A stretch of DNA of 64,000 bases from Deltaproteobacteria bacterium (GCA_016197285.1 JACPWD010000022.1:182502-246501), one strand, 5' to 3'. Shown: positions 14,016-62,176, counted from the stretch's first letter. Notes: generated from the sequence alone by a model not told the origin. Made by a program: numbers and translations.

Positions 14016-14105
14016 TGTCATTCTGAACGAAGCAGAGCGCAGTGAAGAATCTTTTTGCTGAGCCACGAGTGGAGCGAGATTCCTCGCTCCGTTCGGAATG
14101 ACAAC
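14016..14105. repeat. MITE/REP-like imperfect palindromic repeat, family 1 copy A
   Basis: TGTCATTCTGAACG...GAAGAATC ... GAGATTCCTCG...CGGAATGACA. It is one of six dispersed copies and sits in the kdsB upstream region at the island boundary. Confidence 0.7.
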
Positions 14106-14136
14106 ATCGGGCGATAATGGTTATGCGGATAGGCCC

Positions 14137-14532
14137 TTAGTACCGCCTAGAGATCCGTTCGCCTCCATGTTGTTTCATCTCGAACTGGTCTTCAAATAGG
14201 TGGGTAACGCCCTTCCAAGCTTGGTGTCTCTCTTCCCTTTTAAGGAATTTTTTCAAAGCCCGTAACCTTGTTGCAGGCTTGACTCCAAACTTAATCATGC
14301 CTTGGTGAGTACAAAACGGAATATAGTTCTCAGTAAATCTCTTATCGCTTGTTATCAAGATTGCCCCAGCGTCAGTAGACTTCTGAATCACGGTTGGGTC
14401 TTCAGCGTCCTGCCTTAGCCCAGCATCACGAAAGGAAACCACTTTGATCTTTCTCAGAGTGGAAAGATATTCTGAGATCTCGGCTGATAGGCAAGCATCC
14501 ACCAAGAAAGTCAGTTTCCTTTTGGAACTCAT
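14137..14532 (-). CDS. DUF5615-family (PIN-like, Mut7-C related) putative toxin
   Basis: 131 aa; LTFLVDACLS...ISEYL N-terminus resembles DUF5615 proteins that pair with DUF433; low-GC region; 3 nt from the DUF433 ORF. Confidence 0.5.
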   Translation of the reverse strand: MSSKRKLTFLVDACLSAEISEYLSTLRKIKVVSFRDAGLRQDAEDPTVIQKSTDAGAILITSDKRFTENYIPFCTHQGMIKFGVKPATRLRALKKFLKREERHQAWKGVTHLFEDQFEMKQHGGERISRRY

Positions 14533-14535
14533 GCC

Positions 14536-14811
14536 TTATCTTTCCATGACATACCCGGCAAACTGAAGCGCCGCGTGTAATCCTTCTTGGCCAATCGCTG
14601 GAAAGGATTTCAGTATCTTCTTATGCGAGTACCCTGCTTCGACTAACTCAAGAATGGCATAGACAGGAACTCTTGTCTCGGCGACGCAGGGTGCTCCTCC
14701 ATAGATTTTCCTGTTCATAACGATTTTATTATCGACCTTCTCTGCTGCTTGACGAAAAGATTCCTCTATGGAGTCACGAAAATGATCCGCAGAGGACATG
14801 TCAGCATCCAT
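14536..14811 (-). CDS. DUF433-domain protein (putative antitoxin partner). The ORF may extend to 14967.
   Basis: C-terminal IYGGAPCVAETRVPVYAILELVEAGYSHKKILKSFP matches the DUF433 core. Domain-sized protein starts at ATG 14811. Track ORF (143 aa) starts at 14967. Confidence 0.55.
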   Translation of the reverse strand: MDADMSSADHFRDSIEESFRQAAEKVDNKIVMNRKIYGGAPCVAETRVPVYAILELVEAGYSHKKILKSFPAIGQEGLHAALQFAGYVMER

Positions 14812-14963
14812 GCTAGATGCAGGCCATTCTAAGTTAGTGCGCAACGAGCACAAGGACGTTAAGTCTCTGATGATGGAGAATTTCTCCCCGGAGCGCCTAA
14901 CGGGTCGCCTTGCTGATAAGAAGAATCTCTCTTGTTCTGTACTTTTTCGCTTCTGTGCCGCAA

Positions 14964-15671
14964 TCATTTTCTTCTCCTTATCGGTCTTACTGTAGAAAGT
15001 GCAACTTCACTAAGGACAACGACATCATCCTCAACAGTCATCAGTTTCTGCGCGGTAGTCTTTGCTTGTCTATTTAGCCGAACAAAAATTGACTTTCTCA
15101 ATACCCGCTGTTCGGCAAAGCTTACGCCTACTTTATTTTCTTGAAGATTGAGGAAGGTTCCCTCTGCCTGAGCGCCTTCAAAAATTTCGTTCTCTGTGGT
15201 GTTCAATGTCCCAGATAAAAGCAAGGGGAGAGAGAACGCCGAACGATAAGAGTTCCTTGGAAATGCGAAAAATGCCATCTCTTTTAGCTCAATGCTTGCG
15301 TCTGGAGAGATGAATTTATGCAGCCATTGAAATATATCTTCCGCAAATGGCGGCTGTTCCCTGTCCGATTTGATCGCCGTCGTTGGCTCAAGGGCAACAT
15401 GGAAATGCAGCTTGGCCGCTTTGGTTAATTTTTCACGATCCCAGTGAATCCCGACACGTGCTCGATAATCGACTTTTTCACTGGACCGACCACAGGATAC
15501 GGCAAGCGGTTGATTTTTCTTGAACGCTTTTACCAGGTCTTCAAAAGGGAGAACTTCGAGAAATAGATCCTGTAGAAAGTCTTTCTTAGCGATCACTATG
15601 TTCGCTTCAAAGCCTCCACAGTGATGGGACTTGAGTTTTAATGCCTCGCGTTCTTTCCGGGGTGTAGTCAT
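14964..15671 (-). CDS. Hypothetical protein, 235 aa, no recognisable domain; in low-GC island
   Basis: Clean ORF with balanced amino-acid composition, unlike GC-rich antisense ORFs. AT-richer than flanks. Adjacent to the DUF433/DUF5615 pair. Confidence 0.5.
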   Translation of the reverse strand: MTTPRKEREALKLKSHHCGGFEANIVIAKKDFLQDLFLEVLPFEDLVKAFKKNQPLAVSCGRSSEKVDYRARVGIHWDREKLTKAAKLHFHVALEPTTAIKSDREQPPFAEDIFQWLHKFISPDASIELKEMAFFAFPRNSYRSAFSLPLLLSGTLNTTENEIFEGAQAEGTFLNLQENKVGVSFAEQRVLRKSIFVRLNRQAKTTAQKLMTVEDDVVVLSEVALSTVRPIRRRK

Positions 15672-15849
15672 GAAAATTCATCCAGGGAACTAATATGGCA
15701 CGAACGACGCCAACTAAACAACCTTCATCACCGCTCGAAATCAAAATATAAAGGCAGGGTTAGCGGTGTTTCCCCTCGCCGTTGTCGCTTCTCTTCTATA
15801 AGGATTTAGGAGACCTATCGTTCCCCAATTCGGCGGCTTCGTCCATGGC

Positions 15850-16269
15850 TCACACCTCCACCGGGGTCGGCTCGCCCTCCCCCCACACGCGGGCGAGGGT
15901 GGCCTGTATCTTCTTCTCGAAGCGGGCGATCAGTTCACGGTTGGCGGCGACCAACGCTTGCTCCGCTTCAATCTCCTCGACGATTTCCTCGATGAGGCGC
16001 TTGGGGTTCGGCACGGTCTTTTGGTAGCCAGTGATGGAGGTAGGCGTCGGAAACGCCGTGATGACGTAAGGGTTGCCGCGTTCGAGATCCCAGAAGTAAT
16101 GCAGGTTGCCGTTGGAGAGGATGACGAAGCGGCAGTTCTGGGACTTGGCGTATCTACGCACCTGCTCCTTGCCGACGAGCGGGCTTCTGTCTTCGGCTTT
16201 GGCTTCGAGGACGATGAACGGGAAGCCTTTTTCATTGCGGCTTCCTTCTCGGGCATTCCGATTCCTGTC
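15850..16269 (-). pseudogene. Remnant of a type I restriction enzyme R-subunit N-terminal (HsdR_N-like) domain protein
   Basis: Stop-to-stop frame encodes ...GFPFIVLEAKAEDRSPLVGKEQVRRYAKSQNCRFVILSNGNLHYFWDLERGNPYVI, the HsdR_N restriction-enzyme core motif. No start codon precedes the domain. The only start is a GTG in mid-domain. Confidence 0.5.
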
Positions 16270-16303
16270 TCAGCGGCGTTGATCAAAAGGAGAGAGCTAC
16301 TGC

Positions 16304-17173
16304 TCAAGCTGTACTCGGTTGCGCTTCGGCAGGACGGCACTGCACCTGGAGGGCGACCTGCAATGAACTGAAGACACCGGCACCACGAAAGCTCCCCGTA
16401 ACAGGCGCGGCCAAGCGCGGAATTCTCCCAGCAGCGATCACGACATGCTGATCGGCAACTGTGAGCCCACTGGTCGGATCGTACCCGCGCCAGCCGCCGC
16501 CAGGGAGATAGACTTCCGCCCAGGCATGCATGCTCGCGGCGAATACGCTTTTTCCTCCCGTGTACCCGCTGACGAACCGCGCGGCGAGCCCGACAACACG
16601 ACACGATTCGATAAACAGGACGGCAAGGTCGCGGCACGCACCACGCTTTTGCGCCAGCGTCGCCGCTGCCGACTGCGGGTCCCCGTGTTCACGCGTGACA
16701 TAGGTCGTCCGCTCATGAATGCGAGTGTTCAATTGCGCCAGAAACGCCAAGGGTTCCTGTTTCACGTCCGCGGCAATGGAGCGGGCAAATTGATAAAGAG
16801 AGGCATCGTGCTCGCTCACGATGCGATACGACTCCAGGGTCGGACGGATCTCGGTCGCATAGGACACCGGAAGCATCGCTGCGGCGGGGTCGGTAATAAT
16901 GAAGTCGAATGGATTGTCGCGCACGGTCTCTACCGTGAGACGACTCGCGATCTGCAAACGTCGCGTCGCGTCGGCAAACCACACCGACACCACATCGTTC
17001 CCCTCGGCATCTCTTCCCTCCGCCATTCCGGCAGGAAGCGGGTCGATGTTCAGCGCGATCTGTCGAATGCGCTGCGTGCCATCGCTCCGCGGTCGCAAGC
17101 GCAGTTCGTGGGGATTGAGCGCGACAAGGCCACTATAGTTATAAGTCATCGTATGGGAAATCTCGAAAATCAT
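16304..17173 (-). CDS. Transglutaminase-like protein with bacterial transglutaminase N-terminal domain
   Basis: 289 aa; Cys-protease-like core GACRDLAVLFIESCRVVGLAARFVSGY; last gene of the ATP-grasp/alpha-E/Anbu operon. Confidence 0.8.
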   Translation of the reverse strand: MIFEISHTMTYNYSGLVALNPHELRLRPRSDGTQRIRQIALNIDPLPAGMAEGRDAEGNDVVSVWFADATRRLQIASRLTVETVRDNPFDFIITDPAAAMLPVSYATEIRPTLESYRIVSEHDASLYQFARSIAADVKQEPLAFLAQLNTRIHERTTYVTREHGDPQSAAATLAQKRGACRDLAVLFIESCRVVGLAARFVSGYTGGKSVFAASMHAWAEVYLPGGGWRGYDPTSGLTVADQHVVIAAGRIPRLAAPVTGSFRGAGVFSSLQVALQVQCRPAEAQPSTA

Positions 17174-17197
17174 GCGTCCTGTCCGCCGTCTTCCGGC

Positions 17198-17947
17198 TTA
17201 CACCAACACCACGCCGTTGCGCGTATCGAGTCCAGTAAAGACGCGCTCCAGGCTGGTAGCCGGGAGTTCGTGTACGGAACGTCGGAGTTGTTCTTGCCAC
17301 ACTGTGGACATCTCCAGCAGATCGTTCTTCTCGTAGCGATGTTCGACCAGCCGGTGGGAATCTTTGACGTACAAAATGACATCGATGGGGAAATCGACAT
17401 CCGCCGCGCTAATCCGGGTCGAATCGAAGGCCAGGCAACCGACTTTGAGCGCAAACCGCATCGAGTCGTGATGCTGCAGCGTGCGATCGAGAATGGGTTT
17501 GCCATAACCCGAGGCGCCGATGATGTGGTACGGCGTGCCTTGGCCGATTTCCACCCAATTGCCCTGAGGATAGATGAGATAGAGCTTGTGACTGCGATCA
17601 TTGGCGAACTGCCCACCAATGAGGGTATGGATATTGAAATGCAATCCGCCCTCTTCCAACGCTTCTTTATCCTCCTTAGCGACGCGACGGAGTTGCCCGG
17701 CAAACGCATTCACGGCTTTGAAAAGCCGGTCGAACTCCTGACCTTCATCGGCCATGCGTTCCTCGAAGTACGTTAGTGTCTTGTCCCGCAGGGAGCGCAG
17801 GCCGGAGGTCATTACGAACATGGTCTGCCCCTCGTTCGTATAGGTGCTGACTTTGCGCGCGGAGATACATTCGCTGCCGGACAGCACCCGCGTGTCGGCA
17901 ATCCCCACTAGCCCATCTTGTAAATTGATGCCCAGACAAAAAGTCAC
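17198..17947 (-). CDS. Anbu (ancestral beta-subunit) proteasome-like peptidase
   Basis: Proteasome beta-subunit-like fold. A GTG at 17947 gives the N-terminus M-TFCLGINLQDGLVGIADTRV, placing a Thr directly after the initiator as in Anbu. Track ORF starts 9 nt upstream at another GTG. Confidence 0.7.
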   Translation of the reverse strand: MTFCLGINLQDGLVGIADTRVLSGSECISARKVSTYTNEGQTMFVMTSGLRSLRDKTLTYFEERMADEGQEFDRLFKAVNAFAGQLRRVAKEDKEALEEGGLHFNIHTLIGGQFANDRSHKLYLIYPQGNWVEIGQGTPYHIIGASGYGKPILDRTLQHHDSMRFALKVGCLAFDSTRISAADVDFPIDVILYVKDSHRLVEHRYEKNDLLEMSTVWQEQLRRSVHELPATSLERVFTGLDTRNGVVLV

Positions 17948-18013
17948 CAGTTCCACTCCTTCGGTAAGTACCCCACATTATCGATGCTCTAGTACTTCGT
18001 CCATGAACAGATG

Positions 18014-18118
18014 AGGGATTGTCATTCCGAGCCGGAACGCAGTGCAGGCGAGGAATCTCGTGTCGATACTGCCAGCGTGAGATTTCTCGTCGCTCCGCTC
18101 CTCGAAATGACATCCCTC
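18014..18118. repeat. MITE/REP-like repeat family 1 copy B
   Basis: GTCATTCCGAGCCGGAACGCAGTGCAGGCGAGGAATCTCG ... GAGATTTCTCGTCGC...CGAAATGACA; sits in the alpha-E/Anbu intergenic gap; generates spurious ORF 17745..18113. Confidence 0.7.
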
Positions 18119-18142
18119 GAAATTCCCCGGACAGACTACTAG

Positions 18143-19144: not shown

Positions 19145-19156
19145 CGATTCCGCCCC

Positions 19157-21370: not shown

Positions 21371-21469
21371 GAGATTGTCGGTTGTGGCGGGAAGATGGCG
21401 GCCCGAGGGCGAGGACGCTCCCGGGCGCACCGTGCGAGGACACGCCCGGCCTTGTAGGTGTGGAGATGA

Positions 21470-25974: not shown

Positions 25975-28842
<2,868 letters not shown>

Positions 28843-28872
28843 GCGCCTATCCGGATAACCACTATCGCCCGA

Positions 28873-28970
28873 TTGTCATTCTGAGCGCAGCGAAGAATCT
28901 TGCTTTCACCGCCGAAGAAAGATGTTTCGCGGAGTTTATCCTGAGCGTAGTCGAAGGGCTCAACATGACA
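28873..28970. repeat. MITE/REP-like repeat family 1 copy C, flanked by TATCCGGATA palindromic direct repeats
   Basis: TGTCATTCTGAGCGCAGCGAAGAATC ... GCGGAGTTTATCCTGAGCGTAGTCGAAGGG; CCTATCCGGATAAC at ~28848 and GTTATCCGGATAGG at ~28981. Confidence 0.7.
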
Positions 28971-29285
28971 CGTTGCTCACCGTTATCCGGATAGGCACTG
29001 AGTACAAGGCACCCTAAATGACAATTCTCAGTTGGATGTTTTTCATAGGGTCGATTCTGGTTTTATCGCTGGGCCTCTCCATCTACTACCAAGACAAGAA
29101 AGACGCCCGGCACCGCAAAAAATGATCGCTCTCCTGTCATTAGGCACCCGGAAAACAGCAAACCAAGCTCTCAGCTCTCAAGATGGAGAAAATCCATGTC
29201 CCAGCTCATCGAACCAGGGTCCCTGCCCATGAGGAAAAGAACACCGAATCGTTCTTCACTTTCAACTTTTCACTTCTTCCTACCT

Positions 29286-37831: not shown

Positions 37832-38362
37832 AGACTCAGGAAGAAAAGGCAAAAATGAGGACGAAAAGAGCAGATCCCATTTGTCGTCCCCCGAGCGGCG
37901 CATCGCGCCTGCATGATGGTAGCCGTGGGTTTCAACCCACGGCGGAGGGAATCCCACAAAGGCAGAGGCAATACGAGATTCCTCACCGTCACTTCGTTCT
38001 GGTTCGGAATGACAACCCCTACAGGCAAACTGACAGACAGTGGGTTTCAACCCACGGCGCATGGATACCACAAGACATCTGCCGCTACATCGTCCGGCCT
38101 TGAAAGACCGGCCTACCGTCGTGCGCCTCGCTGCGGCGCTGGCCAGCCCGCTGCGCGGAAGATCGTAGCCCACGACGTGAGTCGTGGGGAACATGAGGGA
38201 AGGGCAACGGGGAACAGGCAACAGCGAAAAGGATTGACAAAAAGAGCAGGCCCCGTTCGTCATTCCGCCAGCGGCGTGTCGCGCCGGAAACTGCAACGGC
38301 TGTCATCGGCTAGCGCCGGTAATGTGGCGCGCCCCCGCCCATGGTGGCGCACCACGTTTCAC
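37832..38362. repeat. Repeat-fragment-rich noncoding region (two CCGTGGGTTTCAACCCACGG hairpins plus a partial family-1 arm)
   Basis: GTGGGTTTCAACCCACGGCG occurs at ~37924 and ~38039. Partial family-1 arm GAGATTCCTCACCGTCACTTCGTTCTGGTTCGGAATGACAAC lies at 37975..38016. No convincing ORF. Confidence 0.6.
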
Positions 38363-50247: not shown

Positions 50248-50259
50248 GGTGAGTCTCCT

Positions 50260-52869: not shown

Positions 52870-52902
52870 GTAAACTCTGCCTCACGATTCAATTGAATGA
52901 GG

Positions 52903-54494: not shown

Positions 54495-54533
54495 ACCTTC
54501 TAAACCAACCGTCACGAGATTGGCACACCAGAG

Positions 54534-54620
54534 TTGTCACCCTGAACCCTTCGACTTCGCTCAGGATAAACTCCGTGAAGGGTCTCGCCGTGAGATTCTT
54601 CGCTGCGCTCAGAATGACAG
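54534..54620. repeat. MITE/REP-like repeat family 1 copy D (inverse orientation of copy C)
   Basis: CCCTTCGACTTCGCTCAGGATAAACTCCG ... GAGATTCTTCGCTGCGCTCAGAATGACA is the reverse complement arrangement of copy C. Confidence 0.7.
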
Positions 54621-54807
54621 GGCCGGGTGGTCGCGTCGTAAAGTGTACGAATGTCATGCCTTCCAGTTTAGTCCAGGAATTGCCTAATCTCTGTTGGAGT
54701 TCACTTCCATTCGTTGCCACGTGAGTCTGAAGTGCCAGCGGGAGATGACGGTGGGACGGTAGGGCGGACACTGCCGCCCTACCATTCACTATGACTTTCT
54801 ACGCTTA

Positions 54808-56532
54808 TCAGCAGCGCAGCAGCCGCCCCGGCAGCGAGCCGGTGGCTTGACCGTTCTCGAACGTCACTTGGCCGTTGACCATGATCCACCGGTAGCCTTC
54901 CGCGCCTTGTACGCGCCGCCAGTTGTTGGGCGGGACGTCGTAAAGCACTTCCATCGGCTTGACGGCAAGTTTCGCCAGATCGTACACGAGCAGGTCCGCC
55001 GCCAGTCCTTCCTTGACCGCGCCGCGATCTCTGAACCCCGCCACCCAGGCCGGCAAGTAACTCAGATGATAGTGCGCCTGCTCCAGGGTAATCATGCCGG
55101 TGTCGCGCACCATCCACGTCAGGAGATCGGTGACATACGCCCCCAAGGTCTGAAACTTGGTGTGGGCACCGCCGTCGGAGAAACCGGCGACCGTGCGATG
55201 GCTCAACAGCTCTTTGCAATACTCCGGGCTCTGGTTGCGGACAGGCGTTAGCCATTCCGTCTTCCAGTTGTCGGCAGCGGAGATGTCGATCAGTACGTCA
55301 ACGACGTGCTTATTCTCTTCCTTGGCGATGTCGCGGATCGTCCGATCGCGGTACTGCTTGCGCAAGTCGGCGTTCTCGATCTTGCGGCAAACGAAATCGG
55401 CAATGTCACCCAAGGCTTTCGGTTGTTTGCTGCGGTCGTACTCTTCCCGCATCGACTGCCGTAGTTTGGGGTTGACCAACTTCGCCTTGCGTTCTTCCGC
55501 CGTGCCCAAGGTCGCCTCGCGCCATGCATCGACATTATCGAAGAGGTTCCACTGCTCTTCGAGAGAGAAGCGGAAATCGAGACGCATGGTCAAGCCGTGC
55601 GCCACTAACGGAACCCCGCGTTTGTTGCATTCGTCCACGACATTCAGCATGGTGCGAAAGACTTGTGGCCTTTCATCTGTCACCAACACGGCGTTGAACA
55701 ACGTGGGCCGACTACTGAGTTCCGCAAGCCGTCCGGCGAAACCCATGTCGCGGCGCGGACCTTCGGTGCCTTCGTCCAATGCGCCGGAGACCTGGGCGAA
55801 TTGAATCGTGCCACGGTCATAGTCCGCAAGCATCTTGGCCATGTTGAGATAGAACTCGTCTCCCATCAAGTCCGACACCATGAGGGTGCCGTCATAGTCG
55901 CGTTGCACCGACGCGCCATAGCCAGTGAGGCGTTGCGCGGCCCAGCCGCCGGCACCGCACGCCATGGCTTCGTGCATAACGCGGATAATCTCCGCCATTT
56001 CCTTGTCGTTGGGTTGGCGGGCCTTCGCCTCGTTCCACCCGCCCATGACGTAACTCACCAACGGCGTGACGGGAACAAGCTGGATCATGTTGATCGCTTT
56101 GGGCATGCGATCCATGTGGTCCATCCACTGTGGAAAGGTTTCCCAATCGAACGGCATGGTCGCCTTCATCGCTTCGAAGGGAATCGCTTCGTTGCGTTCC
56201 ATGGACAACATGGAACGGTCGGCGTCTTTATGACGCACGGGCGCAAAGCCAAAGCCGCAATTGCCGTTCGTCACCGAAGTCACGCCATGCCAACTACCGA
56301 TCGTGCAGTGTGGGTCCCAGTGGATCGGCGCGTCGTAATGCGCGTGCAAGTCCACCGCCCCGGGCGCAACAACCAACCCCGAAGCATCGAGCACTTGCGT
56401 GGCATCGTTGCTTTTCAAATGACCGATCTTGGTGATGACGCCGTTTTTGATGCCGACATCGGCGCGGTAGGGCGGCACCAACGTTCCATCGACAATCGTT
56501 CCCCCTTTGATAAGGGTATCGAAGTCTGCCAT
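54808..56532 (-). CDS. N-acyl-D-amino-acid deacylase (D-aminoacylase) family amidohydrolase
   Basis: 574 aa; metal-dependent amidohydrolase motifs (VDLHAHYD, GNCGFGFAPV); GGAGG RBS. Confidence 0.8.
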   Translation of the reverse strand: MADFDTLIKGGTIVDGTLVPPYRADVGIKNGVITKIGHLKSNDATQVLDASGLVVAPGAVDLHAHYDAPIHWDPHCTIGSWHGVTSVTNGNCGFGFAPVRHKDADRSMLSMERNEAIPFEAMKATMPFDWETFPQWMDHMDRMPKAINMIQLVPVTPLVSYVMGGWNEAKARQPNDKEMAEIIRVMHEAMACGAGGWAAQRLTGYGASVQRDYDGTLMVSDLMGDEFYLNMAKMLADYDRGTIQFAQVSGALDEGTEGPRRDMGFAGRLAELSSRPTLFNAVLVTDERPQVFRTMLNVVDECNKRGVPLVAHGLTMRLDFRFSLEEQWNLFDNVDAWREATLGTAEERKAKLVNPKLRQSMREEYDRSKQPKALGDIADFVCRKIENADLRKQYRDRTIRDIAKEENKHVVDVLIDISAADNWKTEWLTPVRNQSPEYCKELLSHRTVAGFSDGGAHTKFQTLGAYVTDLLTWMVRDTGMITLEQAHYHLSYLPAWVAGFRDRGAVKEGLAADLLVYDLAKLAVKPMEVLYDVPPNNWRRVQGAEGYRWIMVNGQVTFENGQATGSLPGRLLRC

Positions 56533-56545
56533 AGCATCCTCCTTT

Positions 56546-56568
56546 GCTGATAGCTGTCAGCTATCAGC
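56546..56568. promoter_or_regulatory. 23-bp perfect palindrome GCTGATAGCTGTCAGCTATCAGC; candidate operator
   Basis: Perfect inverted repeat about a central T, 4 nt upstream of the GGAGG SD of the D-aminoacylase gene. Flanked by further GCTNTCA heptads to ~56585. Confidence 0.55.
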
Positions 56569-56677
56569 GATCAGCTTTCAGTCAGAAAGCCGGGATTTGG
56601 TAAGGCTGTTTGGATGAGGTAGGAAGACAAGGGGCTTTAATCTCCTTGTCCGAACCTGGTCCTCGATCCTCTTGTTG

Positions 56678-58426
56678 TTACGCAGCTACATCGTAACTTC
56701 GCAACATCTTGCCCGGCAACGCGCCGGTGCACTTGCCGTCCTCGAAGGTGATCTGACCATTCACTATGAGGTAGTTATAGCCATCCGCCTTCTGTACCCG
56801 CCGCCAGTCGCCATCGGGCAGATCCTGGATCGTCTCCATCGGCCGCACCGCCAGCTTCTCCAACTCGTAGACCACGATGTCCGCCGGCATGCCTTCCCGG
56901 AGCCAGCCGCGGTCACGGATGCCAATGGCCCAACCCAGCATCGCCGAAAGCCGCCAGTGCGCTTCTTCCAGGGTCATAATTTGCTTATCGCGCACCCAGT
57001 GGGCGAGGAAGTGAGTGGGATAACGGCCCAGGGTCAGGAACTTGGTGTGGGCTCCGCCATCCGAGGCGCCGATCAGACACAGCGGGTGCTTGATGATCGT
57101 GGTCAGGGCTTCCTCGTCATTGTTGATGAAGCCCTGCATGGCGAACTCGGCTTTCAAGTCCTCTTCTACCGACAGGTCCAGCATGACGTCGATCGGATGC
57201 TTCCCCTGCTCTTTGGCAATCTCGCCAATCGTCCGGCCTTTCAGGGACTTGTTCTTGGCCAGATGCACGTCATCGACAAACGTCTCGTCCCATCTGAACA
57301 TCCGCACTTGGCCCTGTTCGCCATCCGGGCTGGTTCCCGGCATCAGCGTCGGCGCTTTTTCCATGTCGCGCTTCAGGGCTGGGCGCCGGGCTGGGTCCGC
57401 TAGCTTGGCCTTGCGCTCGGCCAGCGTGCCGACCGTGGCTTCGTTCCACGCCGGCAGTTGGTCGAACAGCCCGATGGTTTCCATGGTAAACTCAAACTCG
57501 ATCGGCATGCAGATATTGACCGCCAGTACTGGCGCTTCACGATAGGCCTTCTCCGTCCACGCCAGTTGCTCACGCCAAGTGTTGGGAGAGGTGGGATCAT
57601 AAATGACCGCGTTCCAATTCACCGGACGCCCACTGGTCTTGGCTAGTTCCAACAAGAAGTCCATTCCCAGACCCTGCAGGGCGTGACCCATGGTCCACTC
57701 GATCGAGCCGCGGTTAAACTCCCGCATCACTGACGCCATTTCCAGGAACTCTTCGCGCGGCGCCACATGGGTCGGCAGATAGCCGCCGTCATAGTCACGG
57801 TTGGCCATGCTGAAGCTGGCGGAAAAGCCAAACCCGCCCGCCTGTAAGCCTTCCCGCAGAATGTGCTTGATCTCCGCCACTTGCTCCGGCTTGGTTTTGT
57901 ACTTCGGGTCCCGCGCCGCATCGTTGCCTAGCACCCAGGCGCGTAACGGGGAGTACGGCACCAGCGAAGCCGCGTTCACGCCCAGCTCGCCACGGTCCAG
58001 GCTGGTGAGAAATTCGGGAAACGTCTCCCAATCCCAACGCATCCCGGCCTGCATGCAGGAGAGCGGGATGGACTCGGTGCGCTCCATGCGCCGCATGGCC
58101 CGCTCGCGGTCCTCCGGGCGCACCGGGGCAAAGCCGAAGCCGCAGTTGCCGATGGCCACCGTCGTCACTCCGTGCCAGCCTGACAAGGTGGCATACGGGT
58201 CCCATTTGGTCCCGCCACTGAGGGCGGCGTCATAGTGAGTGTGAATGTCCATGAACCCAGGCGCCACGATACGGCCGGTGGCGTCGATGACGCGCGTAGC
58301 ACTCCCCTGAACATTCCCCATGGCCACGATTTTTCCGCCACGGATGCCAATGTTCCCTCGATATGCCGGCATCCGCAGGCCATCGATGATCGTGCCGTTT
58401 TTAATTAAGAGATCGTACTCAGCCAT
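56678..58426 (-). CDS. D-aminoacylase family amidohydrolase (paralog of 54808..56532)
   Basis: Conserved MDIHTHYD, GNCGFGFAPV. ATG 58426 (MAEYDLLIKNGT) is preceded by GGAGG. Track start 58501. Confidence 0.8.
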   Translation of the reverse strand: MAEYDLLIKNGTIIDGLRMPAYRGNIGIRGGKIVAMGNVQGSATRVIDATGRIVAPGFMDIHTHYDAALSGGTKWDPYATLSGWHGVTTVAIGNCGFGFAPVRPEDRERAMRRMERTESIPLSCMQAGMRWDWETFPEFLTSLDRGELGVNAASLVPYSPLRAWVLGNDAARDPKYKTKPEQVAEIKHILREGLQAGGFGFSASFSMANRDYDGGYLPTHVAPREEFLEMASVMREFNRGSIEWTMGHALQGLGMDFLLELAKTSGRPVNWNAVIYDPTSPNTWREQLAWTEKAYREAPVLAVNICMPIEFEFTMETIGLFDQLPAWNEATVGTLAERKAKLADPARRPALKRDMEKAPTLMPGTSPDGEQGQVRMFRWDETFVDDVHLAKNKSLKGRTIGEIAKEQGKHPIDVMLDLSVEEDLKAEFAMQGFINNDEEALTTIIKHPLCLIGASDGGAHTKFLTLGRYPTHFLAHWVRDKQIMTLEEAHWRLSAMLGWAIGIRDRGWLREGMPADIVVYELEKLAVRPMETIQDLPDGDWRRVQKADGYNYLIVNGQITFEDGKCTGALPGKMLRSYDVAA

Positions 58427-58496
58427 GAGAACCCTCCTTATCGCTCTGACGAGCGGGTTAGTGATTACGACAACCTGTTCCCAGGTCCAACCGGAA

Positions 58497-58605
58497 GCCA
58501 TCAGCCGTCAGCGATCAGCACTCAGCCAGGCAAAGGACAAAGGTCTGGTCCGACGCCCGAACTTTCTGGTTTGGCTGAAAGCTGATGGCTAATAGCTGAC
58601 AGCTT
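58497..58605. promoter_or_regulatory. Two clusters of 7-bp-period TCAGC/GCTGA repeats upstream of the second D-aminoacylase
   Basis: CATCAGC CGTCAGC GATCAGC ACTCAGC (58497..58527) and GCTGAAA GCTGATG GCTAATA GCTGACA GCTT (58574..58605). The second cluster is an imperfect version of the 56546 palindrome. Confidence 0.45.
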
Positions 58606-58786
58606 GTTCTCGTCCCGCCCTCCAACCGATCCCCATCGGCCATTCCCTTCGGCGGGACGTTTCTTGACCTCTACCACACGGCCATCCCATTTGACAGAGA
58701 GACGGCGAAATTTCTTGTTACCCGCGCGGGCAGTGCCGGGAACGACTACTTTACAATCTGGTCCCCCTTGGCCAGAATGCAAAGCT

Positions 58787-59113
58787 ATGGCGAAAAAACG
58801 AACGGCTAGTGGAAAGGGGGCCGCTCTTCTTGAGGAACTCAAAGCAGTGGCGAAGCAACTGGGCATTCGCGTGCGTGAAGAAAAACTCCTCAGAGAAGTG
58901 GGCTATCGGGTGCGGGGTGGTGGATGCCGGGTACATGATCAAAACATGGTGTTCCTGGATCGCGATCAACCGCCATCGGAACGTATCGAAATTCTTCTTG
59001 ACGAACTCGGGCAACATCCCGTGGATACAACGCAACTGTCCCCGGCGGCGCGCCGCCTGCTGAGCGGAGGAACACGTGAGCAACCGCCTGGAAATCTTCC
59101 GGCAGTGGATTAA
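58787..59113 (+). CDS. Hypothetical protein (108 aa) upstream of and overlapping fur
   Basis: ATG 58787 in frame with track ORF 58604..59113. Overlaps the fur start by 38 nt. No homology recognised. Confidence 0.35.
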   Translation: MAKKRTASGKGAALLEELKAVAKQLGIRVREEKLLREVGYRVRGGGCRVHDQNMVFLDRDQPPSERIEILLDELGQHPVDTTQLSPAARRLLSGGTREQPPGNLPAVD

Positions 59114-59531
59114 AGAACAGGGCTTGAAGGCGACCTCGCAACGCGAGGATATCGCGCAAGTCTTTCTGGCCGCGAATCGCCACATCAGCGTGGAGGAGCT
59201 GTACAGCGAGGTGCGGCATGTGAATCCCCGCGTCGGTTATGCCACGGTGTACCGCACGATGAAGCTGTTGATCGAATGCGGACTCGCGGTGGAACGTCAC
59301 TTCGCCGATGGACAGGCGCGGTTCGAGAAGGTCGAGGAGGAGCGCCACCATGACCACATCATCTGCGAGCGCTGCGGTCGCATCATCGAGTTTGTCGATC
59401 CGCAGATCGAGCAAATGCAAGCCAAGGTGGCGCGGCAATACGGGTTCCTGGCCACTGACCACAAGATGGAAATCTACGGCATCTGTCAGGAATGCCGCGA
59501 GGGACGAGAGTCTCGTCAAACGGCCAGTTGA
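59076..59531 (+). CDS. fur: Fur-family transcriptional regulator
   Basis: 151 aa; DNA-binding helix region plus HHDHIICERCGRIIEF metal-site motif and C-terminal CxxC; GTG start with GGAGG RBS. Confidence 0.85.
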   Translation: MSNRLEIFRQWIKEQGLKATSQREDIAQVFLAANRHISVEELYSEVRHVNPRVGYATVYRTMKLLIECGLAVERHFADGQARFEKVEEERHHDHIICERCGRIIEFVDPQIEQMQAKVARQYGFLATDHKMEIYGICQECREGRESRQTAS

Positions 59532-60292
59532 AACAGGGCTTCTGTATTCCTCTTAGTCGCTTCGACAACCTCTGCCAGACCGAGCCCTCGGACCTCGGCG
59601 ATGGCTTGCGCCACCTGCGCGACATACGCAGGCTCGTTCCGTTTCCCGCGATACGGGACCGGGGCAAGCAAAGGACAGTCGGTTTCGACTAAAAGGCAAT
59701 CCAGCGGCACGACTTTCGCCACGGCGCGTAAGGCATGAGCGCTTTTGAAGGTGACGATGCCGCTGAAGGAAAGATACAGCCCAAGCGCGAGCAGTTCACG
59801 AGCTTCGTCCGCGCTGCCGGTGAAGCAGTGCATAACGCCGCGCACCCTCCCGCCACCCTCTTCACGCAACGTGGCCGCTGCTTCCGTGTAAGCGTCGCGC
59901 ACATGCATCGACAGCGGCAGCTCCAGCTCGCACGCCAGCCGGATGAACCGGCGAAAATGCGCACGTTGGTCTTCTCTGGGTGAGTTATCGTAGTAGAAGT
60001 CGAGCCCGGTTTCGCCCAGGCCAACGACCTTGGGATGCTGGGCGAGTTGGCGCAACTGCGCGTAGGTCTCCTCGGTAATGGTCTTGGCATCGTGAGGATG
60101 CACGCCAACGACGGCAAAAATAGACGGATGAGCTTGAGCCAAAGCCACAGCTTTTTCGTTATGGGAAAAATCGCCGTTGGCACCGATGACGATGAAGCGT
60201 CCCACGCCGGCGGCATGAGCACGCGCGAGGACTGCCTCCAGGTCTTCGTCGAAGAGGCGGTCAGTCAGATGACAGTGCGAATCGATGAGCAT
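59516..60292 (-). CDS. tatD: TatD-family hydrolase (DNase)
   Basis: MLIDSHCHL N-terminus from ATG 60292, conserved His/Glu/Asp metal ligands. Track start is a GTG at 60298. Confidence 0.85.
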   Translation of the reverse strand: MLIDSHCHLTDRLFDEDLEAVLARAHAAGVGRFIVIGANGDFSHNEKAVALAQAHPSIFAVVGVHPHDAKTITEETYAQLRQLAQHPKVVGLGETGLDFYYDNSPREDQRAHFRRFIRLACELELPLSMHVRDAYTEAAATLREEGGGRVRGVMHCFTGSADEARELLALGLYLSFSGIVTFKSAHALRAVAKVVPLDCLLVETDCPLLAPVPYRGKRNEPAYVAQVAQAIAEVRGLGLAEVVEATKRNTEALFQLAV

Positions 60293-60328
60293 AGGCACCC
60301 TACTACTTCGTCCACCGGAATAAGAAGG

Positions 60329-60446
60329 GTGTCATTCCGAGCCGAAATGCCATGGAGGCGAGGAATCTCGTGTTGTCTCTGCCAGCTTGAGATTCCTCGT
60401 CGCGGAGTTTACCCCGAGCGAAGTCGAGGGGCCTTTCGCAATGACA
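60329..60446. repeat. MITE/REP-like repeat family 1 copy E
   Basis: GTCATTCCGAGCCGAAATGCCATGGAGGCGAGGAATCTCGTG ... GAGATTCCTCGTCGCGGAGTTTACCCCGAGCGAAGTCGAGGGG ... CAATGACAG; between tatD and metG. Confidence 0.7.
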
Positions 60447-60472
60447 GCCTTCAGGATCACCCAGGCGGATAA

Positions 60473-61999
60473 TTACGTCAGTCGCGGGAACAGCGGTTGC
60501 GGTTTCTGGACGAGATGCCCTGGTGCGAAAGCCTTGCCCCAAGGCAGGTCATACGCGCGTTTGAGTTCGGCTGGAAACGCTAGGGAGGCGAAAATTTTCT
60601 CACAGGTGTCCGGCAAGAACGGCGTCAGCAGTTGGGCGGAGACGCGCAGGGCTTCCAGCAAGTTATGGAGAATAGCGCCGACGCGGGGCAGCGAGGCCGG
60701 ATCTTTCGCCAAGGTGAAGGGCGCGGTCTCGGTAATGTACTTGTTCGCTTGATCCGTGGCGCGGAACACCGCCTCTAGCGCCCGACTGAGCGACAGATTG
60801 GCCACGTGCTGTGCGACCTCGGTCGCGGCTTGAGCGAAGGCCGCCGCCAGCCGTTGGTCGATCTCCGGCGCGGGATCGTTTAGCGGTTGAACCACGCCGT
60901 TGAAGTACCGATCCTGCATCGCCAGCGACCGGCTCACCAGATTACCGATATTATTGGCCAACTCGGCGTTGTAGTGGGCATGAAGACTGTCCTCGCGGAA
61001 ATCTGCGTCTTGGCCGAAGACACTCTCGCGCAAGAGGAAATAACGAAACGCATCGAGCCCAATTTTAGCTTTCATGTCCAAGGGCGAAATCACATTGCCC
61101 AGGCTTTTGGACATCTTCTGCCCTTCCACTGTCCAGAAGCCGTGCACGTTCAAATGCCGATACAATGGCACCCCCATCGCCATCAGCATGGTCGGCCAGA
61201 ACACGCCGTGCGGCTTGAGAATGTCTTTTCCGATAAAGTGTTCAGCCTCGGGCCAGAATCGCTCGAACACGTCCTCGCCTTTGTATTTCAAGGCGCTGAT
61301 GTAATTCAGCAGCGCATCGAACCAAACATAAGTGACGTAGCGGGAATCGAAGGGCATCTCGATGCCCCAGGTCAGGCGCGTCTTGGGACGGGAAATCGAC
61401 AGGTCGCCGATCGGCTCGCGCAGCATGGCCACGACTTCATTCCGAAAACCCTCCGGGCGGATGAAGTCGGGATGAGCTTCAAGATGCCGAATCAAGCGCT
61501 CCTGATACTTGCTCATGCGAAAGAAGTAGGTTTCTTCTTCGATCTGTTTCGGTTCGGTCAGATGGTCGGGACATTTGCCGTCGCGGAGTTCTTTGGTCGT
61601 GTAAAAGCGCTCGCAGCCGAAGCAGTACAAGCCCTGATAGCCGCCAAAGTAGATGTCGTCAGTGTCGTACAAACGTGCGAGCACTTCCTGGACATAACGG
61701 ATGTGGTGCTCATCCGTGGTGCGGATGAAGTGATCGTAGGTAATGTCGCATTCATCCCACGCGGCACGAAACGAGGCGCTGACTTGGTCCGTCAATGCTT
61801 TAGGCGACAGCCCGGCAGCGGCGGCGGCTTTTTCGATCTTGTCGCCGTGCTCGTCGGTGCCGGTGAGAAAAAACGTGTCCCAACCGCGCGCCCGATAGTA
61901 GCGGGCCAAGGTGTCGGTAATCAGCATGGTGTAGGCGCTGCCCAGATGCGGGTCGCCGTTCACGTAGTAGATAGGGGTGGTGATATAAATCCGTGGCAT
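60473..61999 (-). CDS. metG: Methionine--tRNA ligase (short form)
   Basis: HIGH-like PHLGSAYT, zinc knuckle CFGCERF...CPDH, KMSKS. ATG 61999 (MPRIYITTPIYYVNG) has a GAGGA RBS. Track ORF over-extends to 62500 through repeat copy F. Confidence 0.9.
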   Translation of the reverse strand: MPRIYITTPIYYVNGDPHLGSAYTMLITDTLARYYRARGWDTFFLTGTDEHGDKIEKAAAAAGLSPKALTDQVSASFRAAWDECDITYDHFIRTTDEHHIRYVQEVLARLYDTDDIYFGGYQGLYCFGCERFYTTKELRDGKCPDHLTEPKQIEEETYFFRMSKYQERLIRHLEAHPDFIRPEGFRNEVVAMLREPIGDLSISRPKTRLTWGIEMPFDSRYVTYVWFDALLNYISALKYKGEDVFERFWPEAEHFIGKDILKPHGVFWPTMLMAMGVPLYRHLNVHGFWTVEGQKMSKSLGNVISPLDMKAKIGLDAFRYFLLRESVFGQDADFREDSLHAHYNAELANNIGNLVSRSLAMQDRYFNGVVQPLNDPAPEIDQRLAAAFAQAATEVAQHVANLSLSRALEAVFRATDQANKYITETAPFTLAKDPASLPRVGAILHNLLEALRVSAQLLTPFLPDTCEKIFASLAFPAELKRAYDLPWGKAFAPGHLVQKPQPLFPRLT

Positions 62000-62080
62000 A
62001 TGTCCTCGAAGAGGTCTCAAACAGTTTACGGGAGTTGAACCTTGCACTAACAAATCAGGGGGCCACGGACGAAGAGGGGT

Positions 62081-62176
62081 TGTCATTCCGAGCCGCAATG
62101 CAATGGAGGCGAGGAATCTCGTGCTGGTCCTGCTCTCGTGAGATTCTTCGTCGCTGCGCTCCTCAGAATGACATTC
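62081..62176. repeat. MITE/REP-like repeat family 1 copy F
   Basis: TGTCATTCCGAGCCGCAATGCAATGGAGGCGAGGAATCTCGTG ... GAGATTCTTCGTCGCTGCGCTCCTCAGAATGACA; between metG and holB. Confidence 0.7.

What the first reader, a model, noticed from the sequence alone, without database searches (positions are those of the whole stretch)
14016..62176. Dispersed family of ~90-120-bp imperfect palindromic MITE/REP-like elements (six full copies plus a fragment)
The copies are at ~14016, 18014, 28873, 54534 (inverted orientation), 60329 and 62081, with a fragment at 37975. They share the arms GTCATTC(C/T)GAGC...GAGGAATCTCG and CGAGATTC(C/T)TCG...GAATGACA. Some carry an inner module (GCGGAGTTTA(C/T)CC(C/T)GAGCG(A/T)AGTCGA(A/G)GGG). 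All are intergenic. Two bracket metG inside an otherwise conserved tatD-metG-holB-tmk cluster. One splits the Anbu operon and one marks the island boundary at kdsB. They cause the ORF finder to over-extend metG and to call spurious ORFs (e.g. 17745..18113 MSFRGAERREISRW...). Their long hairpins could act as transcription terminators or mRNA stabilisers.
Basis: seen in the sequence. Interest (0 to 1): 0.55.

Follow-up and report, generated by a model that had tools for sequence, protein, structure and literature searches.

The report
Mobile hairpin repeats (TGTC-type REP/MITE)
The seven repeats are real copies of a small non-coding mobile element whose centre is a pair of short hairpins also found in over 20 bacterial phyla; this class is already described, so the find is a well-characterised new member rather than a new kind of thing.

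Summary
All seven reported copies exist and all are intergenic. They are not chance similarity. A structure model built only from hairpins of other phyla recovers exactly the arms of these seven elements (10 units, E<=0.002) and nothing else in 64 kb.

Each arm is a REP unit: unpaired TGTC head, 5-bp stem, invariant tandem G.A/A.G, 2-bp stem, GNA or longer loop, CT tail. Six copies are head-to-head heterodimers and one is a singleton. This matches the published CGTC/TGTC-tagged REP superfamily (Di Nocera 2013), which has no known transposase.

- The "inner module" is a 27-nt loop variant of one arm.
- The repeated unit is larger than reported (143-171 bp). It includes lineage-specific inverted-repeat "shells" that end at TA.
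- Close relatives (94-97% identical flanking proteins) lack the element at all three sites tested. One empty site fits a TA duplication within the metG stop codon.
- The core hairpin occurs in more than 20 phyla and shows strong compensatory covariation.

No U-tract terminator is present. Any effect on mRNA is untested. Best reading: a non-autonomous mobile element mobilised in trans.

The parts
13986..14140 (.). Element c14016 with its shells, 155 bp, flanked by TA at 13984-5 and 14141-2. It lies between the DUF5615/PIN-like gene (14137-14532, -) and kdsB (12990-13730, -). The stop codon of the upstream gene (14137-9) lies inside the element's terminal CTAAGG.
14016..14052 (+). REP unit: TGTC ATTCT GA AC[13-nt loop]GT GA AGAAT CT. 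Its AC/GT inner pair is compensatory relative to the usual GC/GC.
   Evidence: (E 9e-7)
14077..14103 (-). REP unit: TGTC ATTCC GA AC GGA GC GA GGAAT CT (short GNA loop).
   Evidence: (E 3e-8)
17992..18139 (.). Element c18014 with type-1 shells (GTACTTCGTCCAT... / ...GGACAGACTAC), 148 bp, TA at 17990-1 and 18140-1. It starts 1 nt after the alpha-E stop codon (18143-5) and lies upstream of Anbu. It is absent from L158 (alpha-E 97% identical) and L162.
18020..18058 (+). REP unit with a 13-nt loop closed by GCC/GGC.
18080..18112 (-). REP unit with stem ATTTC/GAAAT (compensatory) and a nested second GA-GC-GGA-GC-GA motif.
28842..29002 (.). Element c28873 with type-2 shells (AGCGCCTATCCGGATAAC... 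/ ...GTTATCCGGATAGGCACTGAG), 161 bp. The left TA (28840-1) is the TA of the stop codon TAA of ORF 25975-28842. The right TA is at 29003-4. It lies between convergent genes.
   Evidence: (I6)
28874..28900 (+). REP unit, canonical 27-mer TGTCATTCTGAGCGCAGCGAAGAATCT.
   Evidence: E 2e-10
28920..28970 (-). REP unit with stem ATGTT/AACAT (compensatory) and a 27-nt loop.
   Evidence: (D13, I4)
37976..38014 (-). Singleton REP unit (ACC/GGT compensatory inner stem, 13-nt loop). A type-1-like shell remnant extends to about 38040 and a degenerate partner remnant lies at 37950-37975. It lies between convergent TPR and TauD genes.
   Evidence: (E 7.5e-5)
54503..54645 (.). Element c54534 in inverted orientation, about 143 bp. 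The left TA is at 54501-2. The right end is uncertain (a TA lies at 54646-7). The left shell and core are 87.5% identical to a copy at a different place in relative L123 (86-196).
54593..54619 (-). REP unit, canonical 27-mer identical to 28874-28900.
   Evidence: (I9)
54535..54585 (+). REP unit with stem ACCCT/AGGGT, inner AC/GT (both compensatory) and the 27-nt 'module B' loop.
60303..60473 (.). Element c60329 with type-1 shells, 171 bp. TA at 60301-2 and 60474-5; the latter is inside the metG stop codon. It is absent from L122, L123, L124 and L127. The empty site reads ...ACG TAA GG...
60330..60368 (+). REP unit with a 13-nt loop.
60388..60446 (-). Degenerate REP unit with an intact TGTC head, carrying the 27-nt 'module B' loop (60402-60432 on the + strand).
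62050..62209 (.). Element c62081, about 160 bp. The right end is firm (…GGACAAACTAC|TA at 62210-1). The left end is probable (TA at 62048-9). It lies between holB (stop at 62238) and metG (start at 61999). Relative L122 has only 25 nt here.
62081..62119 (+). REP unit with a 13-nt loop.
62141..62173 (-). REP unit with a nested second GA-GC-GCA-GC-GA motif.

Best explanation
The copies belong to one family of non-autonomous mobile DNA elements, 143-171 bp long with no ORF.

Anatomy. The centre of each is a head-to-head pair of REP hairpin units of the CGTC/TGTC-tagged superfamily. A unit reads 5'-TGTC | 5-bp stem | G.A/A.G tandem mismatch | 2-3-bp stem | loop (GNA, 13 nt, a nested copy of the motif, or 27 nt) | CT. 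Around this core lie lineage-specific inverted-repeat shells that end at a TA on each side.

How it most likely works. The whole unit, shell plus core, is moved by an enzyme encoded elsewhere. It lands at TA dinucleotides. In this 59% GC genome such TAs are often the TA of a stop codon, so copies end up directly downstream of ORFs and inside operons, where they are co-transcribed.

Shown:
- family membership of the copies;
- conservation of the hairpin structure;
- presence/absence polymorphism at three sites;
- the extent of the inserted DNA;
- TA at the ends.

Inferred:
- that the TA is a target-site duplication (one empty site supports this);
- the identity of the mobilising enzyme (unknown);
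- any effect on mRNA stability or on translational coupling.
For: (1) Family and structure. Model R1, built from arms in other phyla, recovers 10 units only in these elements. On 31 unconstrained partner arms the local hairpin is 87% paired. Six of 7 pairs carry double compensatory changes (27 cells), and 0 of 500 shuffles reach this. Slid controls give 20-49% paired. G10, A11 and A20 are invariant or near invariant. Inside the window, 12 of 13 arms have 5/5 stem pairs despite different stems: ATTCC, ATTCT, ATTTC, ATGTT and ACCCT.

(2) Mobility. L122 (MetG 94% identical) has holB-metG and metG-tatD gaps of 25 and 7 nt, against 238 and 174 nt in the window. The blastn breakpoints fall exactly at the elements, which add about 215 and 167 nt. 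L123, L124 and L127 also lack them. L158 (alpha-E 97%) and L162 lack the alpha-E/Anbu copy. L123 carries a c54534-like copy at another locus.

(3) Unit larger than the core. The DNA missing from the relatives includes the shells. The same shell recurs around the same core in unrelated metagenome contigs. For example L151 reads TA|GTACTTCGTCCAT...core...GGACAGAGTAC|TA. Flank similarity far exceeds the null (scores 12-29.5 against a null maximum of 13). Shell motifs occur only next to cores.

(4) TA ends. Eight of 8 well-defined ends in the window are TA. At metG-tatD the empty site has one TA (ACG TAA GG) and the filled site has two.

(5) No linked gene. No ORF family recurs within 1.5 kb in 120 loci.

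(6) Multi-copy in the source. Short-read contigs of the same organism end inside the cores.

(7) Literature. CGTC/TGTC-tagged REPs are described as mostly head-to-head dimers, intergenic, close to ORF 3' ends, without a dedicated transposase, and sometimes embedded in larger palindromes (PMC3733652).
Against: - No transposase with matching ends was found. Only 64 kb of the genome plus short loci could be examined.
- The TA duplication rests on a single clean empty site. At the alpha-E/Anbu site the empty allele's spacer has diverged and shows no TA. At holB-metG the left boundary is ambiguous.
- In Acidobacteriota the outer palindrome runs through the TA (CACAGACTTAACAGG...), so TA ends are not universal.
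- If the shell is what the transposase recognises, the cross-phylum conservation of the core is unexplained.
- Absence in relatives could in principle reflect loss rather than gain. Gain is more parsimonious because 4 of 4 and 2 of 2 relatives are empty.
Confidence: 0.62

Rival explanations
1. REPIN-like mechanism. The mobile unit is the head-to-head REP doublet itself. It would be mobilised as single-stranded DNA by a HUH/Y1 (RAYT- or IS200-like) enzyme that recognises the hairpin plus the unpaired TGTC head. The shells would be pre-existing palindromic targets or hitch-hikers.
For: - The architecture is that of a REPIN: two inverted hairpin units with a conserved unpaired tetranucleotide head on the outside.
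- Selection acts on each local hairpin rather than on arm-to-arm pairing. All six dimers are heterodimers, and compensatory changes lie within arms.
- GC-GNA-GC with tandem 5'-YGAR-3' G.A pairs is a motif known from the literature to be unusually stable in single-stranded DNA. This rests on my own knowledge and was not tested here.
- The core is conserved across more than 20 phyla while the shells are not.
Against: - The DNA absent from empty sites includes 26-66 nt beyond each TGTC head.
- Shell-only copies were not found.
- No Y1/RAYT-like or other ORF recurs next to the repeats in 120 loci.
- Di Nocera et al. found no transposase flanked by CGTC repeats.
- The head is TGTC, not the GTAG recognised by known RAYTs.
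Confidence: 0.2
2. Host-selected structural element. The hairpins would be kept because they act in cis as mRNA 3'-end protectors, processing sites, decouplers of translationally coupled genes, or binding sites for a conserved host protein. Their spread would be secondary.
For: - They lie downstream of ORFs, inside operons or between convergent genes (7 of 7 in the window). In the metagenome loci, convergent contexts outnumber divergent ones 5 to 1.
- The cores fold into long hairpins of -30 to -44 kcal/mol with z-scores of -1.8 to -4.5.
- Extreme conservation of the unpaired and non-canonical positions suggests a specific binding partner.
Against: - The elements are absent from the same intergenic sites in relatives with 94-97% identical flanking proteins, whose genes are tightly packed or overlapping. 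They are therefore dispensable there.
- There is no association with any gene class.
- No U-tract is present, and terminator-like matches do not exceed shuffles.
- No Rfam family matches.
Confidence: 0.12
3. Chance GC-rich similarity or an assembly artefact.
For: None found. The source is a metagenome-assembled genome, so artefacts had to be considered.
Against: - The motif count is far above shuffles.
- An independent model finds only these sites.
- The same elements occur in isolate genomes (Pedobacter, Mucilaginibacter) and in many independent assemblies.
- Each copy has unique flanks and unique arm variants.
Confidence: 0.01

Closest known systems
CGTC-tagged REPs (Di Nocera, De Gregorio & Rocco 2013, BMC Genomics 14:522). 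These include Neisseria dRS3 (CGTC-1) and Rickettsia RPE-4/RPE-6.
   Same: [quoted passage not shown]
- A stem of 8-9 positions that begins with A-T.
- A short unpaired tail.
- Predominantly head-to-head dimers 20-100 bp apart, and often heterodimers.
- Intergenic, between unidirectional or convergent ORFs and near their 3' ends.
- No linked transposase.
- Some dimers sit inside larger lineage-specific palindromes (H. neapolitanus).
- A CGTC-2-type arm (…CTGAACTTGTTTCAG…) occurs as the partner of this type within one dimer (L037).
   Different: - The stem carries an invariant tandem G.A/A.G mismatch.
- The loop is a GNA triloop, or a long insertion of 13 or 27 nt, or a nested copy of the motif.
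- The tail is CT(C/T), not CCA.
- The hosts found here go far beyond the five phyla reported.
- I could not see the paper's Figure 2 consensus sequences. Whether this exact subtype was already listed as one of CGTC-1 to CGTC-4 is therefore unverified.
REPINs mobilised by RAYTs (GTAG-tagged REPs of Pseudomonas and E. coli)
   Same: An inverted doublet of short hairpin units, each with a conserved unpaired tetranucleotide. The elements are intergenic, multi-copy and non-autonomous.
   Different: The head is TGTC rather than GTAG. No RAYT was found near any copy. The inserted unit extends beyond the heads.
E. coli BIMEs (mosaics of REPs with other short motifs)
   Same: Mosaic, modular build. The same core combines with different outer motifs: shell types 1, 2 and 3. 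Copy c14016 has a type-1 shell on the left and a type-2 shell on the right.
   Different: The motifs are unrelated in sequence. The host-protein binding reported for BIMEs (my own knowledge of the literature) was not examined here.
TA-duplicating bacterial MITEs (Neisseria Correia/NEMIS; IS630-derived elements such as RUP)
   Same: Length of 100-200 bp, terminal inverted repeats, TA at both ends, insertion in intergenic or operon-internal positions, and co-transcription. This comparison rests on my own knowledge of those families.
   Different: There is no sequence similarity to those elements. The cognate transposase is unknown. The TA duplication is supported by only one empty site. The interior is a universal REP dimer rather than remnant IS sequence.

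Membership tests
CGTC/TGTC-tagged REP superfamily | Unpaired terminal tetranucleotide CGTC (TGTC or CCTC variants accepted). | tested here: met
   All 13 arms in the window start with TGTC. In 31 arms from other phyla, positions 2-4 (GTC) are >=90% conserved and are not paired.
CGTC/TGTC-tagged REP superfamily | Stem of 8-9 positions whose first two pairs are A-T / T-A. | tested here: met
   ATTCY-GA-GC / GC-GA-RGAAT makes 9 positions (7 Watson-Crick pairs plus 2 G.A). The first pairs are A-T and T-A in 11 of 13 window arms. Covariation supports the stem. The two G.A mismatches are a departure from the published stems.
CGTC/TGTC-tagged REP superfamily | Loop of 4-5 nt. | tested here: inconclusive
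   The commonest loop is GNA: 3 nt, or 5 nt if the closing C-G is counted. It accounts for 91 of 142 loops. Window arms also have 13-nt, nested and 27-nt loops. The paper mentions atypical loops in some families.
CGTC/TGTC-tagged REP superfamily | Short unpaired 3-nt tail (consensus CCA). | tested here: inconclusive
   A conserved tail exists but reads CT(C/T/A) rather than CCA.
CGTC/TGTC-tagged REP superfamily | Mostly head-to-head dimers (heads outside), often heterodimers. | tested here: met
   Six of 7 window elements are head-to-head dimers with spacers of about 20-25 nt, and all six are heterodimers. Seventy-eight such dimers were found in the fetched loci.
CGTC/TGTC-tagged REP superfamily | Intergenic, between unidirectional or convergent ORFs, close to ORF 3' ends. 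| tested here: met
   Five copies are unidirectional, 2 convergent and 0 divergent. Three elements begin within 0-2 nt of a stop codon.
CGTC/TGTC-tagged REP superfamily | No dedicated transposase gene flanked by the repeats. | tested here: met
   No ORF family recurs within 1.5 kb of the repeat in 120 loci; the best cluster covers 5 loci. None of the Pfam-scanned flanking genes is a transposase.
REPIN / RAYT system | GTAG (GTRG) head recognised by the RAYT. | tested here: not met
   The head is TGTC.
REPIN / RAYT system | A RAYT (Y1 transposase) gene flanked by the REPs somewhere in the genome. | not testable with these tools
   Only 64 kb of a 285-kb contig was available. None was seen next to copies in 120 loci.
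TA-duplicating (IS630/Tc1-mariner-type) MITE | TA target-site duplication. | tested here: inconclusive
   TA is present at 8 of 8 well-defined ends and at most ends in the metagenome copies. One empty site has a single TA where the filled site has two. A second empty site is too diverged to judge. Acidobacterial shells do not end at TA.
TA-duplicating (IS630/Tc1-mariner-type) MITE | Terminal inverted repeats matching those of an autonomous IS that encodes a DDE transposase. | not testable with these tools
   Shell inverted repeats exist.
Intrinsic (Rho-independent) terminator | GC-rich hairpin followed directly by a U-tract on the transcribed strand. | tested here: not met
   No such site lies at the elements on the transcribed strand. 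Counts do not exceed shuffles.
Any Rfam RNA family | Match to a curated covariance model. | tested here: not met
   There were 0 hits at gathering thresholds over the whole window. With E<=10 over 59500-62500, only noise appeared and none of it lay at the elements.

The most novel reading that the evidence does not exclude
The 27-nt TGTC hairpin (5-bp stem, invariant tandem G.A, GC-GNA-GC tip) may be a universal recognition module for a still-unidentified and very widespread enzyme or host factor that acts on single-stranded DNA or RNA. Lineage-specific MITE shells would have repeatedly captured or retained it. That would make it one of the most broadly distributed sequence-specific repeats in prokaryotes: more than 20 bacterial phyla including CPR, and possibly archaea. 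It would also give the 'orphan' CGTC REP superfamily its missing mobilisation or maintenance mechanism.
Probability: 0.2. Interest if true: 0.7.

Novelty: new member of a known kind. Interest (0 to 1): 0.38.

Why it matters
Annotation. These elements break short-read assemblies at their arms. They over-extend real genes such as metG and create spurious ORFs with recurring peptides (…CHSERSEES…, …SFRGAERREIS…). Masking them would improve annotation of many MAGs.

Biology. They have been inserted recently into essential, normally compact operons (holB-metG-tatD and alpha-E-Anbu). This gives natural filled-site and empty-site pairs for testing what REP-type hairpins do to polycistronic mRNAs.

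Open question. The CGTC/TGTC REP superfamily has had no known mobilising enzyme since 2013. Three results here give concrete handles for finding one: the moved unit includes TA-ended inverted-repeat shells, insertion coincides with stop-codon TAs, and the core hairpin covaries as a local structure across phyla.

Tried and rejected
- Rfam. A gathering-threshold scan of the whole window and an E<=10 scan of 59.5-62.5 kb matched nothing at the elements.
- Linked gene. I suspected GIY-YIG, RAYT or TnpB. Clustering all ORFs within 1.5 kb of 142 matches in 120 loci gave no recurrent family.
- Literature by sequence string. Six 13-mers returned only unrelated primer hits. A search for GCGAAGC, hairpin and repeat returned nothing relevant. 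The 2025 RepRanger paper does not mention this motif.
- Plasmid collection. There was no real hit, so there is no evidence that cultured-organism plasmids carry it.
- Terminator reading. Rejected on sequence grounds.
- Orientation bias. All window copies have the same arm order relative to upstream transcription, but 26 metagenome loci did not confirm a bias, so I make no claim.
- Thermodynamics of single arms. The nearest-neighbour model gives only -0.7 to -6.4 kcal/mol with no significant z-score. The model does not capture sheared G.A pairs or GNA loops, so this neither supports nor refutes special stability.
- Integron attC and CRISPR. Considered and dropped. There is no R''/R' core site (RYYYAAC/GTTRRRY) and no regular spacing.
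- Source contig. Exact-protein look-ups returned only short Logan contigs, so I could not retrieve more of the 285-kb contig.

Full report
**1. Observation**

The TGTC…GACA core coordinates are:
- 14016-14103
- 18020-18112
- 28874-28970
- 54535-54619 (inverted orientation)
- 60330-60446
- 62081-62173
- a single arm at 37976-38014

The 12-mer GTCATTCYGARC with up to one mismatch occurs 10 times against 1.5 expected, and 0 of 100 shuffles reach that count. Repeat finding links the copies (D2, D13, I1-I4, I8, I9).

Flanking genes were identified with Pfam. They are kdsB and a DUF5615/PIN-like plus DUF433 pair; alpha-E and the Anbu proteasome homologue; a molybdopterin oxidoreductase and an FAD oxidase; a TPR protein and TauD; an amidohydrolase and a luciferase-like oxidoreductase; and tatD, metG, holB and tmk. 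All seven copies are intergenic. Five lie between co-directional genes, two between convergent genes and none between divergent genes.

The metG ORF is over-extended through the repeat. The true start MPRIYITTP is at 61999. The ORF MSFRGAERREISRW… is a repeat translation.

**2. Anatomy**

The elements are modular. Each arm is one hairpin unit:

5'-TGTC | 5-nt stem | GA | 2-3-nt stem | loop | 2-3-nt stem | GA | 5-nt stem | CT

Twelve of 13 arms have 5/5 stem pairs, even though the stems differ: ATTCC/GGAAT, ATTCT/AGAAT, ATTTC/GAAAT, ATGTT/AACAT and ACCCT/AGGGT. The inner pair is GC/GC or the compensatory AC/GT.

There are four loop types:
- GNA (3 nt)
- a 13-nt loop GNAAYGNANTGNA closed by GCC/GGC
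- a nested second GA-GC-GNA-GC-GA
- a 27-nt loop

It sits inside the 3' arm of c28873, c54534 and c60329 rather than between the arms.

Six elements are head-to-head dimers with the TGTC heads outside, and all six are heterodimers. The seventh is a singleton with a degenerate partner.

**3. The hairpin is a conserved structure found across phyla**

The records come from:
- Nitrospirota and Nitrospinota
- Chloroflexota and Acidobacteriota
- Planctomycetota and Verrucomicrobiota
- Bacteroidota, including the isolates Pedobacter and Mucilaginibacter
- Ignavibacteria and Fibrobacterota
- Gemmatimonadota, Armatimonadota and Abditibacteriota
- Firmicutes
- Alpha-, Beta-, Gamma- and 'Delta'-proteobacteria, and Campylobacterota
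- Omnitrophota and CPR groups
- one Nanoarchaeota MAG

In 91 of 142 matches the loop is GNA.

I then took the second arm of each dimer, which the search pattern did not constrain, and aligned 31 distinct ones. On the structure ....(((((..((...))..))))).. the results were:
- 87% of cells pair.
- Six of 7 pairs show changes on both sides (27 cells).
- The covariation score is 0.377 against 0.191±0.021 in shuffles, and 0 of 500 shuffles reach it.
- Sliding the partners by 1-3 columns gives only 20-49% pairing.
- G10 and A11 are invariant, and G19 and A20 are at least 90% conserved.

The compensatory changes preserve each arm's own hairpin, not pairing between the two arms.

A covariance model from these 31 foreign arms finds exactly the 10 short- and medium-loop arms of the window at E 2e-10 to 2e-3. 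Nothing else scores below E=0.1. The three arms with 27-nt loops are missed, as expected.

**4. Mobility**

The MetG protein is 100% identical to an NCBI MAG protein labelled 'Deltaproteobacteria bacterium' on a 285,739-bp contig. The nearest named relatives are Methylomirabilota for MetG and Candidatus Binatia for alpha-E.

Orthologous loci were fetched from relatives. The intergenic gaps compare as follows:

| Locus | MetG identity | holB-metG gap | metG-tatD gap |
|---|---|---|---|
| Window | - | 238 nt | 174 nt |
| L122 | 94% | 25 nt | 7 nt |
| L123 | 87% | 67 nt | 12 nt |
| L124 | 85% | 84 nt | overlapping |
| L127 | 85% | 100 nt | overlapping |

The blastn breakpoints between L122 and the window fall exactly at the elements. 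L122 4982/4986 corresponds to window 62232/62014, and L122 6527/6524 to window 60473/60303 (alignments).

At the Anbu operon, L158 (alpha-E 97% identical) and L162 (82%) have a 60-nt spacer without the element.

Conversely, L123 carries a c54534-like copy (87.5% identical) upstream of tmk, where the window has none.

So three of three tested sites are polymorphic, and the family is present at different places in relatives.

Short-read contigs from the same organism stop inside the cores on both sides of metG and after holB. This is expected for a multi-copy repeat.

**5. The moved unit is larger than the core**

The DNA missing from the relatives includes 26-66 nt on each side of the TGTC…GACA core. 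These shells are themselves repeated and inverted.
- Type 1 (GTACTTCGTCCAT… / …GGACAGACTAC) flanks c18014, c60329, the right side of c62081 and the left side of c14016.
- Type 2 (AGCGCCTATCCGGATAAC…) flanks c28873 on both sides and c14016 on the right. Between these copies it is 41 nt long at about 90% identity (scores up to 29.5 against a null maximum of 13; I6).
- c54534 has a third type, shared with L123.

Shell motifs occur only next to cores.

A metagenome scan with the lineage-specific long-loop arm returned 30 contigs. In these the same shells surround the same core at unrelated sites. L151 reads TA|GTACTTCGTCCATCAGAATTTGAGGGAT[core]CTCCTCAGAATCACCCGGACAGAGTAC|TA. L145 and L135 are similar, and the L128/L140/L150/L154 subfamily has its own shell.

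Across phyla, about a third of 78 dimers sit in outer inverted repeats that differ by lineage.

In the window every well-defined end abuts TA, 8 of 8. At metG-tatD the relatives read ACG-TAA-GG. The window reads ACG-TA[ATTATCC…GAAGTAG]TA-GGG. That is one TA in the empty site and two in the filled site, and the left one completes the metG stop codon. The stop codons of ORF 25975-28842 and of alpha-E likewise coincide with or abut the flanking TA. The stop codon of the DUF5615 gene lies inside the end of c14016.

I infer TA-targeted insertion with TA duplication. In a 59% GC genome this would naturally place copies at stop codons. This rests on one clean empty site, so I treat it as probable rather than shown.

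**6. What it is not**

- No Rfam family matches.
- No intrinsic terminator is present. There is no U-tract on the transcribed strand, and terminator-like hits do not exceed shuffles.
- No ORF recurs next to the repeats in 120 loci.
- There are no hits in the plasmid collection.

As RNA, the cores fold into long hairpins of -30 to -44 kcal/mol with z-scores of -1.8 to -4.5. Single arms are not exceptional in the nearest-neighbour model. That model does not describe sheared G.A pairs or GNA triloops. From my own knowledge of the literature, d(GCGAAGC) and tandem 5'-YGAR-3' G.A pairs are unusually stable in DNA. This is a lead and was not tested here.

**7. Comparison with what is known**

Di Nocera et al. 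2013 (PMC3733652) define CGTC-tagged REPs by these features:
[quoted passage not shown] - loops of 4-5 nt and 3-nt tails;
- mostly head-to-head dimers 20-100 bp apart, often heterodimers;
- an intergenic position between unidirectional or convergent ORFs, close to their 3' ends;
- no dedicated transposase;
- in Halothiobacillus neapolitanus, every dimer embedded in a larger palindrome.

Neisseria dRS3 and Rickettsia RPE-4/-6 belong to this superfamily.

The window's elements meet the head, stem, dimer, location and orphan criteria. They differ in the tandem G.A mismatch, the GNA or long loops, and the CT tail. A CGTC-2-type arm pairs with this type within a single dimer in L037, which ties the two together.

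I therefore file the elements as a new member or subfamily of a known kind. I could not see the paper's Figure 2, so prior listing of this exact consensus cannot be excluded.

**8. Mechanism and rivals**

- Best reading (0.62): a non-autonomous mobile element that moves as shell plus core and is mobilised in trans.
- Main rival (0.2): REPIN-like single-strand mobilisation through the TGTC hairpins. The hairpin-level selection and the cross-phylum core favour it. The breakpoints at the shell ends and the absence of any linked HUH gene argue against it.
- Purely host-selected regulatory role (0.12): unlikely, given absence at orthologous sites in close relatives.

What remains unexplained is why the core is nearly invariant across phyla while the shells are lineage-specific.

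Noticed in passing
window 37923-37944 and 38041-38062; also 37860-37909 vs 38236-38285; L122:1992-2058 vs window 38092-38159: A second, unrelated repeat lies in the TPR/TauD spacer. The perfect palindrome CCGTGGGTT-TC-AACCCACGG occurs twice, flanking the singleton REP. Surrounding segments are repeated at 78% identity. One segment matches relative L122 at a different locus at 82%. This is probably another dispersed intergenic repeat family of the lineage.
   Followed up: partly
L158:1772-1835 (alpha-E/Anbu spacer of a 97% relative): The 'empty' allele contains an 11-nt string, CGCCTGCACTG, identical to the loop region of the c18014 long-loop arm. It lies within a small palindrome, GGCAGTGCGCCTGCACTG. 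It could be a remnant of an earlier element or chance (rough expectation about 0.002). It is unexplained.
   Followed up: no
window 56552-56585, 58496-58529, 58572-58604: Heptad-like repeats AGCTGTCAGCTATCAGCGATCAGC… occur in direct and inverted copies (79-91% identity) in the spacers around the two paralogous Amidohydro_3 genes, 54808-56532 and 56678-58501 (D14, I7). L122 has only one of the two paralogues.
   Followed up: no
window 14001-16000: This is a low-GC block (0.48 against about 0.59) holding a DUF433 plus DUF5615/PIN-like pair (14137-14967) and a 235-aa ORF with no Pfam match. The same kind of gene pair sits at other positions in relative L122 (10347-10987; DUF433 alone at 2940-3164), so these cassettes also move around.
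   Followed up: partly
window 37202-37681: A 120-nt tandem repeat (3 copies, 77-78% identical) lies inside the TPR-protein gene 35855-37831. It corresponds to repeated TPR units at the DNA level.
   Followed up: no
L001 and L163 (Logan contigs of run SRR12113391): Short-read contigs of what appears to be the same organism end inside the REP cores on both sides of metG and after holB. The elements fragment short-read assemblies.
   Followed up: yes
L048, L042, L046, L019, L009 (Acidobacteriota loci): In Acidobacteriota the same TGTC dimer core sits inside a different conserved outer palindrome, CACAGACTTAACAGGCTGCGGAAAAA … TTTTTCCGCAGCCTGTTAAGTCTGTG. In L048 two such composites lie about 200 bp apart. 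The start ACAGGYTG resembles mariner-type inverted-repeat starts; this comparison is from memory and was not tested.
   Followed up: partly
L037 (Nanoarchaeota MAG) and CPR loci L055, L071: The core hairpin also turns up in an archaeal MAG and in CPR bacteria. In L037 its partner arm is of the CTGAACTTGTTTCAG (CGTC-2-like) type. MAG contamination cannot be excluded for the archaeal case.
   Followed up: no
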